26,847 bases of DNA from IMG/VR virus record IMGVR_UViG_2645727810_000007; one strand, given 5' to 3'. Position 1 is the first letter of the stretch, and each line of letters opens with the position of its first letter. Below are positions 7,754 to 8,931 of the stretch, in pieces. The stretch comes from a virus (lineage: Duplodnaviria; Heunggongvirae; Uroviricota; Caudoviricetes). The position numbers and the translations under genes are program-made. A model generated the notes under the pieces. The model was not told the origin of the DNA, did no database searches, and saw only the letters and a list, made by a program, of their open reading frames with translations.

Positions 7754-8722
7754 TTAGATTTCTGGTTTCATTCTTCCGAAAACCTTTTCTATTCCTTTTT
7801 CGTATTCTTCTCTTGTCTCACTCATCGCTGCGACACCAAGAAGCTTACCGATATGCTGACGCAAAGCCTTGACACCAATTTCAGAAAGGAACAGGTGCAA
7901 CTTATCAGATTGTTTTCCGTTCTCGTCTCGGCTAGCTCGAATCTGTTCAAGGATTTTACCTTTACTCTTTGCTAGCGGGGTGTATATCTGCATGTTGGTT
8001 AGCTGCCCAAAACGAATAGGCCGTCCTTTCTCTGGCCTATTCAGGCCGTACAGTCGATACCACTCCTCGTATAGCTCATCTGGAAATTCCTTTTCATATT
8101 GACGAGCCTCTTCACGAACAAACGCTTTGAACTCGTCAATGACAGCCTGAACTTCTGGACGATAACCAGCAAGCGCATACGCAACCCCCTTAATTCCCGC
8201 CTTAGCGGAGGCATTAATAAGTCTCTGCGCTGCAGCCGCGGCCTTTAACCGTGATTGTGGTAGATCGTCATTATCTTTGGCTTCTATTAGTGCCCTACCA
8301 ATATCAACAATTGCTGTAATGTCATAACCTAACGCTTGATGAACGGTTTTAGACTTCGAAGTAAGTTGAAATTTATAGGGATTTTCCATTTTTCGCTGCA
8401 ATTCTAGATCTCGGTATTTGCTCATATACTGAGCGCCAAGCAGTTGATCTAAATCCCTGGCATGTTCACCAATCCCTAGCAGCTGAGATAATCCAGTTTT
8501 CGTAACAACGACAGTTTTCGACTCGTCATCCAGTACATAACATTCAGCATCAATGCCAAAATCATCTAAAAAGTTACCACGATGAGTTGCTCTGAGAATC
8601 TTACTTTTCCATCTTGCAGCCGCTGCTTTCTTTGCTATCTCGGAACGCTGTTCTTTAGTTAGCGATTTTGCGCGAGCGATCCCGCCCTTAGCTTTCCCTT
8701 CACCACTTTTCTTTTCAGTCAT
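7754..8722 (-). CDS. Stand-alone accessory protein of unknown function, possibly P63C-like with a basic N-terminal region
   Basis: ORF track gives 7754..8785. ATG at 8722..8720 (MTEKKSGEGKAKGG...) has an AGGTG Shine-Dalgarno. It has its own sigma70-like promoter and terminator. The N-terminus (GGIARAKSLTKEQRSEIAKKAAAARW) looks like a DNA-binding motif. The P63C assignment is from memory of the family, not verified. Confidence 0.5.
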   Translation of the reverse strand: MTEKKSGEGKAKGGIARAKSLTKEQRSEIAKKAAAARWKSKILRATHRGNFLDDFGIDAECYVLDDESKTVVVTKTGLSQLLGIGEHARDLDQLLGAQYMSKYRDLELQRKMENPYKFQLTSKSKTVHQALGYDITAIVDIGRALIEAKDNDDLPQSRLKAAAAAQRLINASAKAGIKGVAYALAGYRPEVQAVIDEFKAFVREEARQYEKEFPDELYEEWYRLYGLNRPEKGRPIRFGQLTNMQIYTPLAKSKGKILEQIRASRDENGKQSDKLHLFLSEIGVKALRQHIGKLLGVAAMSETREEYEKGIEKVFGRMKPEI

Positions 8723-8723
8723 A

Positions 8724-8813
8724 ATGCAAGCACCTTTGTTGTGATCTATGCTTGCATTATATGCACTGTACACATATACAAGCAAGCATAAAACAAAAAC
8801 AAAATGCTTGCAT
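8724..8813 (-). promoter_or_regulatory. Promoter with four ATGCTTGCAT-type repeats (putative operators)
   Basis: Minus strand: -10 TATAAT (8761..8756), -35 TTGCTT (8785..8780), 18-nt spacer. Motif copies at 8724-8732 (reverse, over the Shine-Dalgarno), 8749-8758 (forward, abutting the -10), 8781-8790 (reverse, over the -35) and 8804-8813 (forward). Confidence 0.5.
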
Positions 8814-8931
8814 TAAAACCGCGCTACTCCAACTACACATTATCATCTGGTATCCTGCACAAAACTAACCGCTGCGTGCTTTTGCTTAAGTTAACGGATA
8901 CAAACATAGGAAACGTTACAAGGGGAAAGTT

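What the first reader, a model, noticed from the sequence alone, without database searches (positions are those of the whole stretch)
7754..8815. Self-contained accessory gene with a four-copy ATGCTTGCAT operator array over its own promoter
The 7754..8722 gene is the only large gene in the island that is neither repressor nor antirepressor-like. It is insulated from phage late transcription by its own promoter (-35 TTGCTT / -10 TATAAT) and a strong terminator (7721-7745). Four copies of a quasi-palindromic 10-mer, in alternating orientation, sit exactly on the -35, the -10/+1 and the Shine-Dalgarno/start. That is the layout of a tightly repressed, possibly autoregulated, lysogen-expressed gene. 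The protein has a basic N-terminus (GGIARAKSLTKEQRSEIAKKAAAARW) suggestive of DNA binding and a large C-terminal region I cannot assign with confidence (possibly P63C-like). This is my best candidate for an undescribed function such as superinfection exclusion, defence or a regulatory switch.
Basis: partly seen in the sequence, partly recalled or inferred. Interest (0 to 1): 0.65.

Follow-up and report, generated by a model that had tools for sequence, protein, structure and literature searches.

The report
Self-regulated P63C gene with conserved operator array
The four repeats are real and mark a gene that most likely switches itself off through a 30-residue head on its own protein; the same gene-plus-repeats unit recurs almost unchanged across many bacterial phyla, usually inside a jumping gene, though what the protein does is still unknown.

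Summary
Gene 7754-8722 (-) encodes a 322-aa P63C-domain protein (Pfam PF10546, PHROG 2384, function unknown). It has a terminator, a TTGCTT-18-TATAAT promoter and four ATGCAAGCAT/ATGCTTGCAT sites at 8724-8813.

Comparative analysis adds three points:
1. The same core (TGCAAGCA/TGCTTGCA), order, orientation and spacing lie upstream of homologues in many phyla. O2 supplies the -35, the -10 ends on the first T of O3, and O4 abuts the ATG.
2. The array travels with a ~30-aa N-terminal motif (GGxARAxxLTxEQRxEIAKKAAxARW), not with the P63C body. RhuM-family proteins carrying the motif have the array. Motif-less RhuM and P63C relatives (11 of 11) do not.
3. Outside the enterics the unit is usually the core of a three-gene IS1-family transposon with terminal inverted repeats and perfect 8-bp target duplications (26 of 26).

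The window copy is an orphan cassette in an immI-like prophage island.

Most likely mechanism: negative autoregulation, with the N-terminal head binding two 34-bp dyads over the promoter and start codon. This is inferred, not shown. The effector function is unknown and there is no defence-system match.

The parts
7721..8868 (-). Whole mobile cassette: terminator, gene, and promoter/operator region.
   Evidence: A block of 97.7-98.4% identity with differing flanks is found in phage ON470589 and in E. coli chromosomes.
7726..7749 (-). Intrinsic-terminator hairpin with a 10-bp stem, followed by a T-run. The convergent mnt-like gene ends inside it.
   Evidence: Terminator scan and the sequence itself.
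7754..8722 (-). Gene for a 322-aa P63C-domain protein, identical to WP_000136767.1.
7865..8128 (-). P63C domain, aa 199-286.
   Evidence: Pfam PF10546, E 6.8e-14, 52.7 bits against a cut-off of 26.1.
8609..8686 (-). N-terminal head motif GGIARAKSLTKEQRSEIAKKAAAARW (aa 13-38), the inferred operator-binding domain.
   Evidence: G13, G14, A16, R17, R26, A30, R37 and W38 are invariant. The motif is shared with RhuM-family proteins and with a small IS-encoded protein. Its presence or absence tracks the array.
8724..8733 (-). O4, GTGCTTGCAT, between the Shine-Dalgarno (AAGG 8736-8733) and the ATG.
   Evidence: In most homologues this site overlaps the start codon as TGCTTGCATG.
8748..8757 (-). O3, ATGCAAGCAT, overlapping the end of the -10 and the likely +1.
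8756..8761 (-). -10 hexamer TATAAT.
   Evidence: Read from the sequence. Across 54 loci the hexamer ending on the first T of O3 is TAnnnT in 37.
8780..8789 (-). O2, ATGCTTGCTT, which contains the -35 TTGCTT (8785-8780).
   Evidence: The -35 inside O2 is TTGCAT in 34, TTGCAA in 10 and TTGCTT in 8 of 54 loci. The spacer is 17-18 bp in 45 of 54.
8804..8813 (-). O1, ATGCAAGCAT, the upstream dyad partner of O2. In the IS form its opposite strand supplies the -35 of the divergent transposase promoter.
   Evidence: The promoter reading in the IS form is inference from the sequences.

Best explanation
The 7721-8868 cassette is an orphan copy of an ancient, portable, self-regulating unit. It consists of a sigma-70 promoter built into a four-site operator array, plus a gene whose product begins with a ~30-residue basic helical head (GGxARAxxLTxEQRxEIAKKAAxARW).

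Proposed mechanism: the protein binds its own array through this head, probably as two dimers or one tetramer on two 34-bp dyads (O1/O2 and O3/O4).
- O2 occupies the -35.
- O3 occupies the -10/+1.
- O4 occupies the stretch between the ribosome-binding site and the ATG.

Rising protein would then shut off its own transcription. This is homeostatic negative autoregulation, independent of phage late transcription.

What is shown: the sequence layout, its conservation, and its co-inheritance with the head. What is inferred: binding and repression.

The body of the protein (a possibly Bro-N-like middle domain plus P63C) is an effector of unknown activity. In most lineages the unit is the core accessory module of a three-gene IS1-family transposon, with the order transposase (reading leftward), array, P63C gene (reading rightward), then a small head-only protein (reading leftward). 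There the same array would also control the divergent transposase promoter.

In this window the unit has been captured, without transposase or ends, into an immI-like (Mnt/Arc/Ant) prophage island. It sits there as a moron-like accessory gene.
For: Sites are non-random and conserved:
- Four sites within 90 bp; 0 of 2000 resamples reach this.
- The upstream 160 bp of nearly all of 78 homologous loci from many phyla are repeat-rich, with 10-30 repeat pairs against about 1 in shuffles.
- They share the same core. Its density is 17.8 per kb in the 140 bp upstream, against 0.04 per kb in the rest of the loci.
- 54 loci have all four sites with an invariant core in the order A-T-A-T. Spacings are 22-25, 30-32 and 22-25 bp. 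O4 starts 7 nt before the ATG in 37 of 54.

Promoter is embedded in the array:
- The -35 TTGCA(T/A) lies inside O2, followed by a 17-18 bp spacer.
- The -10 TAnnnT ends on the first T of O3.

The binder is the gene's own head:
- Full arrays persist in orphan loci with no transposase, no small ORF and no conserved neighbour. These are the window, L003-7, L019, L022, L033, L034, L044, L045, L052, L055, L069, L080 and L082.
- RhuM-family proteins share only aa 9-38 with this protein, at 73% identity. They carry the same sites, including O3 at the -10 and O4 on the ATG (L207-209). Their motif-less relatives L210 and L212-214 have none.
- Motif-less P63C relatives L071, L073, L217, L222, L223, L226 and L227 have no array. 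Motif-bearing members of the same distant branch, L218-221, do.
- Pooled: 65 of 83 motif-bearing loci have arrays against 0 of 11 motif-less loci, Fisher p = 5e-7. The samples are not independent.
- An E. coli allele only 54% identical overall keeps a near-identical array and an identical first 38 residues at the same prophage locus.
- An acidobacterial subgroup with an altered, extended head has a different inverted repeat, TATACTTGCYCGGG.

Transposon context:
- IS1-family transposase.
- Terminal repeats GGTAGTGnnTCAGTTTGAA at both ends in 28 loci.
- Perfect 8-bp target duplications in 26 of 26 testable copies.
- A small ORF ending in the head motif in about 30 loci.
Against: - There is no direct evidence of binding, repression or transcription start.
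- The head matches no Pfam model even at E<=10 and no solved structure. Its DNA-binding nature rests on correlation alone.
- The AlphaFold model is only moderate (pLDDT 71 overall, 55-67 for the head).
- All four sites are mutually complementary, so an RNA or single-stranded DNA structure is also possible.
- Some annotation pipelines label head-only small proteins as YciG-like stress proteins or histone H1. That would not imply sequence-specific binding.
- 13 motif-bearing loci lack the canonical core, although most of them show variant repeats.
Confidence: 0.7

Rival explanations
1. The repeats act as RNA, or as single-stranded DNA, rather than as protein-binding DNA. In transcripts that read in from upstream, the arms pair as O3:O4 or as nested O1:O4 and O2:O3. 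This buries the ribosome-binding site and start codon. Only transcripts from the gene's own promoter, which start inside O3, would be translated. This is the kind of fold-back insulation known for IS10 and IS50.
For: - Perfect complementarity is kept, including the asymmetric AA/TT centres.
- A Shine-Dalgarno-like sequence lies in the O3-O4 spacer in 43 of 54 loci, and O4 abuts the ATG.
- The predicted fold is -47.9 kcal/mol, z = -5.4.
- The gene is co-oriented with the late operon, and in the IS form it is exposed to outside transcription.
Against: - The core is invariant across phyla rather than covarying.
- One-sided, unpaired changes outnumber compensated ones: 35 against 8 for O1/O2 and 43 against 11 for O3/O4.
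- The recurrent O4 variant TGCTTACA (9 of 54) is never compensated in O3.
- A pure RNA device would not need to co-occur with a protein motif, yet motif-less homologues lack the array.
- It could still operate alongside operator binding.
Confidence: 0.12
2. The array is bound by something other than the gene's own product. Candidates are the IS1-family transposase, the small head-only protein, the neighbouring Mnt/Arc repressors, or a host factor.
For: - In the IS form two other putative DNA-binding proteins are encoded next to the array.
- The small protein carries the same head and may well bind the same sites.
Against: - Orphan cassettes in many taxa keep the array with none of these partners.
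- The Mnt/Arc region of this window has its own, different palindrome (TTGGTTCTAGAACCAA, 7336-7351).
- A host factor conserved from Firmicutes to Acidobacteriota that tracks a phage/IS protein motif is implausible.
Confidence: 0.08
3. The array is primarily a site of DNA transaction, either res-like cointegrate resolution or transposition control. The P63C protein would be the effector and the small head-only protein its antagonist. Repression would be a by-product, as with Tn3 TnpR at res.
For: - The layout mirrors tnpA-res-tnpR: divergent genes flanking several inverted-repeat subsites that overlap both promoters.
- P63C is present in even the smallest element, 2.29 kb.
- Motif-less P63C genes lie directly after IS1595-type transposase genes.
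- A large protein sharing its binding domain with a small one recalls IS1 InsAB'/InsA (the comparison is from general knowledge).
Against: - No recombinase, nuclease or NTPase domain or fold was detected.
- The motif is essentially absent from the element ends.
- Orphan copies with a single array are maintained in prophages.
- Motif-less P63C proteins exist without any array.
Confidence: 0.1

Closest known systems
Phage P22 immI control (Mnt and Arc repressors acting on Pant/Pmnt operators)
   Same: It is a small operator-controlled accessory transcription unit in the same genomic neighbourhood. In E. coli P22-like prophages the cassette lies between the gp16-type ejection protein gene and mnt. 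Operators overlap promoter elements.
   Different: Mnt and Arc are ribbon-helix-helix proteins with their own palindromes. Here the regulator is the N-terminal head of the regulated protein itself. There are four sites, and the head matches neither Arc nor RHH models.
Tn3-family tnpA-res-tnpR organisation
   Same: A transposase gene and an accessory gene are divergent and separated by an array of inverted-repeat subsites with variable spacing. The subsites overlap both promoters, and the accessory protein is presumed to autoregulate.
   Different: There is no serine- or tyrosine-recombinase domain, and recombination is not shown. The element is IS1-family with 8-bp duplications.
IS1 InsA / InsAB'
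   Same: It belongs to the same IS family. A small protein shares a DNA-binding module with a larger protein of the same element, which suggests competition or repression.
   Different: In IS1 the shared module belongs to the transposase and binds the terminal repeats. Here it is shared with the P63C protein, and the sites are internal.
P63C / Bro-N / KilA-N / RhuM network of shuffled phage regulator domains (Iyer, Koonin and Aravind 2002; cited from memory)
   Same: It contains a bona fide P63C domain. Weak fold matches go to Mx8 p63 and Bro-N proteins. The same head is fused to a RhuM domain in other phages. This is modular domain shuffling.
   Different: The head motif and its cognate array were not found described in the searchable literature. 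None of these domains has a known activity.
Phage morons (own promoter and terminator inside a late region; for example P22 sieA at the equivalent locus, from memory)
   Same: It is a self-contained promoter-gene-terminator block. It is variably present between conserved phage genes and sits at the locus where P22 carries sieA.
   Different: It has no similarity to SieA and no defence-system match. The unit is older than, and independent of, phages.

Membership tests
Pfam P63C (PF10546) | HMM score above the curated gathering threshold | tested here: met
   52.7 bits against 26.1, E 6.8e-14, aa 199-286. PGAP names the identical protein 'P63C domain-containing protein'.
PHROG 2384 (unknown function) | Full-length profile match | tested here: met
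   E 1.7e-104, aa 6-321 against profile positions 4-328 of 338.
Phage moron / autonomous accessory cassette | Own promoter and terminator, with presence or absence between conserved phage genes | tested here: met
   Promoter and terminator are present in the sequence. The block 7721-8868 recurs with different flanks.
Phage moron / autonomous accessory cassette | Transcribed from its own promoter in the lysogen | not testable with these tools
   This needs RNA-seq or 5' RACE on a lysogen.
IS1-family transposon carrying the P63C module | Terminal inverted repeats GGTAGTGnnTCAGTTTGAA, an adjacent IS1-type DDE transposase, and an 8-bp target duplication | tested here: not met
   No terminal repeat is found in the window, even allowing 3 mismatches. 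There is no transposase and no second head-motif ORF. The window copy is an orphan. Relatives meet all three features.
Negatively autoregulated gene (operator bound by own product) | Operator overlaps core promoter elements | tested here: met
   O2 lies on the -35, O3 on the -10/+1 and O4 on the RBS-ATG stretch. These positions are conserved in 54 loci.
Negatively autoregulated gene (operator bound by own product) | The product binds the operator and lowers transcription | not testable with these tools
   Only co-occurrence is available: 0 of 11 motif-less relatives have the array, against 65 of 83 motif-bearing ones.
Known anti-phage defence systems (PADLOC-DB 2.0) | Match to any defence protein model | tested here: not met
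   0 families at E<=1.
Arc/Mnt ribbon-helix-helix or other catalogued DNA-binding domains (for the N-terminal head) | Profile match of the head | tested here: not met
   No Pfam hit at E<=10 for the head or for the small head-only protein. No PDB sequence relative.
Bro-N / antirepressor-type proteins | Bro-N domain by profile or by fold | tested here: inconclusive
   No Pfam Bro-N hit. Foldseek against viral models gives weak matches to Mx8 p63 (E 4.5e-3) and to many Bro-N or antirepressor entries (E 0.03-2). PDB searches gave nothing convincing.
Site-specific recombinase (Tn3 resolvase-like role) | Serine or tyrosine recombinase catalytic domain | tested here: not met
   No such Pfam or NCBIfam hit. 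No fold match. The LRxH-like stretch is not invariant.

The most novel reading that the evidence does not exclude
The head plus array is a previously undescribed portable DNA-binding and operator module. The P63C protein is a core accessory factor of an undescribed three-gene IS1-family transposon, and of related IS1595-type elements. It would act on DNA at the internal array, for example in res-like cointegrate resolution or transposition control. The head-only small protein would act as its antagonist. The prophage copy in this window would be a domesticated orphan of that system.
Probability: 0.15. Interest if true: 0.85.

Novelty: new variant of a known kind. Interest (0 to 1): 0.62.

Why it matters
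P63C and RhuM are large, widespread families in phages, prophages and other mobile elements, and neither has a known function. This analysis gives both a concrete, testable handle: a 30-residue head, an exact 10-bp site and a defined promoter geometry.

It suggests that a compact autoregulatory unit has been moved between effector domains and between mobile elements across phyla with its operator almost unchanged.

It also describes an active IS1-family element with two conserved accessory genes. That bears on how IS1-type elements are regulated.

An identical copy of the protein is annotated in multiple complete E. coli genomes, so every prediction can be tested in a standard host.

Tried and rejected
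- Chance repeats: rejected by the resampling test and by cross-phylum conservation.
- TTG at 8785 as the start codon: rejected by homologue alignment.
- Defence-system membership: no PADLOC or NCBIfam hit.
- Tyrosine-recombinase-like LRxH...Y motif: the residues are not invariant.
- IS ends in the window: none.
- Additional target sites in the window: only scattered single 1-mismatch hits at 4166, 9351 and 16009, which is chance level.
- Sites at the transposon ends: not enriched.
- Mnt/Arc as binders: they have a different palindrome.
- Other effector fusions of the head: a profile search with the head returned only small head-only proteins among the best 120, so it gave no information on this.
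- Literature: searches for P63C function, for an IS1-P63C association and for RhuM/Bro-N links found nothing relevant. ISfinder could not be consulted.
- The first metagenome scan, with too divergent an alignment, failed.

Full report
OBSERVATION

On the minus strand an ORF runs from the ATG at 8722 to the stop codon at 7756-7754 and encodes 322 aa. The mechanical ORF list extends it to a TTG at 8785. Homologue alignments place the start at 8722.

Four 10-mers lie at 8813-8804 (ATGCAAGCAT), 8789-8780 (ATGCTTGCTT), 8757-8748 (ATGCAAGCAT) and 8733-8724 (GTGCTTGCAT). No 100-bp span in 2000 Markov-1 resamples of the window held four such matches. They form two 34-bp inverted repeats (10-N14-10).

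The promoter is TTGCTT (8785-8780), an 18-bp spacer, then TATAAT (8761-8756). The terminator hairpin is at 7749-7726 with a T-run.

THE GENE AND ITS SETTING

- The protein matches Pfam P63C (E 6.8e-14, above the cut-off) and PHROG 2384 (E 1.7e-104, unknown function).
- It matches no PADLOC or NCBIfam model.
- It is identical to WP_000136767.1, annotated 'P63C domain-containing protein'.
- The surrounding island holds two antirepressor genes (5619-6395, and 6433-7143 with Bro-N plus P22_AR_C), an Arc gene (7133-7321) and an Mnt-like gene (7418-7738).
- It also holds an unassigned plus-strand ORF (8932-9405), followed by an SLT-domain tail protein gene (9408-11225).
- The block 7721-8868 recurs at about 98% identity with other flanks in phage vB_EcoP-611R6 and in E. 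coli P22-like prophages. There it lies between the gp16-type ejection protein gene and mnt.
- It therefore behaves as a mobile promoter-gene-terminator cassette.

THE ARRAY IS CONSERVED ACROSS PHYLA

Full-length homologues of about 320 aa, 41-72% identical (most 44-52%), occur in Proteobacteria, Acidobacteriota, Myxococcota, Verrucomicrobiota, Firmicutes, Chloroflexi and other phyla. A profile search finds 2984 clusters at 50% identity.

- In nearly all of 78 loci the 160 bp upstream are repeat-rich, with 10-30 repeat pairs against about 1 in shuffles.
- The repeat is the same core, TGCAAGCA/TGCTTGCA.
- Its density is 17.8 per kb in the 140 bp upstream and 0.04 per kb elsewhere in the loci.
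- Fifty-four loci have all four sites with an invariant core and the same order and orientation.
- Spacings are 22-25, 30-32 and 22-25 bp. The last site starts 7 nt before the ATG in 37 of 54, reading TGCTTGCATG.
- The promoter is built into the array. The -35 is TTGCAT, TTGCAA or TTGCTT inside O2. The spacer is 17-18 bp in 45 of 54. The hexamer ending on the first T of O3 is TAnnnT in 37 of 54.

WHO BINDS THE ARRAY

The array tracks the N-terminal ~30 residues, not the P63C body.

1. Orphan loci with no transposase, no small ORF and no shared neighbour keep the full array.
2. A scan of viral contigs for one dyad gave 120 loci. Sixty-nine lay next to P63C genes. Fifty were isolated single dyads, roughly what chance predicts. 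One lay upstream of a RhuM-family protein (PF13310, E about 1e-65) that starts with the same head.
3. RhuM relatives with the head (L207-209) have the sites, including O3 at the -10 and O4 on the ATG. Relatives 55-62% identical but without the head (L210, L212-214) have none.
4. The P63C and RhuM proteins share only aa 9-38, at 73% identity.
5. P63C relatives without the head (L071, L073, L217, L222, L223, L226, L227) lack the array. Head-bearing members of the same distant branch (L218-221) have it.
6. Pooled, 65 of 83 head-bearing loci have arrays against 0 of 11 head-less loci. Fisher p = 5e-7, with the caveat that the samples are not independent.
7. A 54%-identical E. coli allele at the same prophage locus keeps a near-identical array and an identical first 38 residues.
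8. An acidobacterial subgroup with an extended, altered head has a different inverted repeat.

The most economical reading is that the head is a sequence-specific binding domain for the 10-mer and that the gene represses itself. Binding and repression remain inferred.

TRANSPOSON CONTEXT

In most non-enteric loci the gene is divergent from a protein of about 290-305 aa that matches IS1-family transposase models.

- Terminal inverted repeats GGTAGTGnnTCAGTTTGAA flank the unit in 28 loci, giving elements of 2.29-4.7 kb.
- Twenty-six of 26 testable copies have perfect 8-bp target-site duplications.
- A small convergent ORF of about 75 aa lies between the P63C gene and the right end, and it ends in the same head motif.
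- PGAP annotates the transposase generically. One plasmid copy carries a RES-Xre toxin-antitoxin pair as cargo.
- The window has no such ends, so its copy is an orphan.
- On the opposite strand O1 reads as a TTGCAT -35 for the divergent transposase promoter. This is inference from the sequences.

STRUCTURE

AlphaFold gave pLDDT 71. The model has two N-terminal helices, a beta/alpha domain (aa 43-134) and a helical C-terminal half. PDB searches gave nothing convincing. Viral-model matches are weak; they are led by unnamed entries and Mx8 p63, with many Bro-N or antirepressor entries among the named ones. The head matches no Pfam model or solved structure. Thousands of small head-only proteins exist, and some pipelines label them YciG-like or histone H1.

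RIVALS

All four sites are mutually complementary, and the RNA folds strongly (z = -5.4). Fold-back insulation against read-through transcripts therefore remains possible and may coexist with operator binding.

Three points argue against a purely structural element:
- The core is invariant rather than covarying.
- One-sided changes are mostly uncompensated, including a recurrent O4 variant in 9 of 54 loci.
- The array is tied to a protein motif.

A res-like DNA-transaction role is attractive by analogy with Tn3 but has no catalytic-domain support.

VERDICT

The finding is real, and the regulatory interpretation is well supported by comparison. The effector function is unknown. No literature describing the head, the operator or the IS1-P63C element was found in the searchable library.

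Noticed in passing
L061 2990-5276; L011 2973-5275; L053 1452-3916 (and 25 more loci): An active three-gene IS1-family element. It has terminal repeats GGTAGTGnnTCAGTTTGAA and perfect 8-bp target duplications in 26 of 26 testable copies. 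It carries a transposase, the P63C gene with its array, and a small head-only ORF. The element spans many phyla and is annotated only as 'IS1 family transposase'.
   Followed up: yes
L217 about 270-470; L222 about 980-1178; L226 about 880-1082: Motif-less P63C genes lie immediately downstream of, and co-oriented with, what look like IS1595-type transposase C-termini (...NTIEGFW..LKRG..YH..S.KHL..Y..EF.FRYN.R). This would be a second association of P63C with the IS1/IS1595 transposase group. The transposase identity was judged by eye, not by a profile search.
   Followed up: partly
L150 3593-4741; L208 and L209 1501-2640: RhuM-family (PF13310) phage proteins carry the same N-terminal head and the same upstream sites as the P63C protein. 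Their head-less relatives carry neither.
   Followed up: yes
window 8932-9405 (+): An unassigned ORF with a hydrophobic, signal-peptide-like N-terminus and no Pfam or PHROG match. It is divergent from the P63C gene and sits where P22 carries sieA (the P22 position is from memory). A homologous ORF is annotated in E. coli KCJ3K291.
   Followed up: partly
window 7321-7417: The intergenic region between the arc-like and mnt-like genes holds a separate palindrome (TTGGTTCTAGAACCAA) and a TTGACA-16-TAAATT promoter-like site on the minus strand (7375-7348). This is probably the island's own Mnt/Arc operator-promoter region, and it is unrelated to the ATGCAAGCAT sites.
   Followed up: partly
window about 650-11225: The immI-like island (two antirepressors, Arc, Mnt, P63C) is embedded among contractile-tail and baseplate genes (baseplate J, DUF2612, SLT tail protein). 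In most E. coli genomes the same cassette sits in P22-like podovirus prophages next to tailspike and ejection-protein genes.
   Followed up: partly
L216 3860-4993: A second E. coli P63C allele, 54% identical overall, occupies the same P22-like locus. It has a near-identical array and an identical first 38 residues. A ClpP-like protease gene follows it.
   Followed up: partly
L011 3863-3905 and equivalent positions in many IS loci: An extra palindrome, CTCAAGCAT...ATGCTTGAG (with variants such as TATGCTTGAGCGG), lies at the transposase start. It resembles a half-site of the main operator. It may be a further regulatory site or a 5'-UTR hairpin.
   Followed up: no
L020, L024, L028, L030, L036, L038, L043, L046, L056 (upstream about 100 bp): An acidobacterial subgroup has an extended head (…LGAxKGGxARAxKLSxERRxEIARAAIQARW). 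Its operator is different: a single long inverted repeat, TATACTTGCYCGGGCA … CTCGGGCAAGTATA, flanking a TTGACT -35.
   Followed up: partly
L085 (Acidiphilium multivorum plasmid NZ_CP041717) 1545-4721: An apparent copy of the element (IS1 transposase, a divergent 318-aa hypothetical and a 76-aa ORF, assigned as the P63C and head-only genes by layout only) with a RES-domain toxin and Xre-type antitoxin gene pair just beyond the transposase gene; element ends were not mapped here. It may show that these IS can carry cargo.
   Followed up: no
proteins P0270-P0389: Head-only small proteins of 55-79 aa are very abundant: more than 7800 hits before the candidate cap. They are variously annotated as 'general stress protein YciG', 'histone H1' or LEA_5. 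Whether they are all IS-associated is unknown.
   Followed up: no
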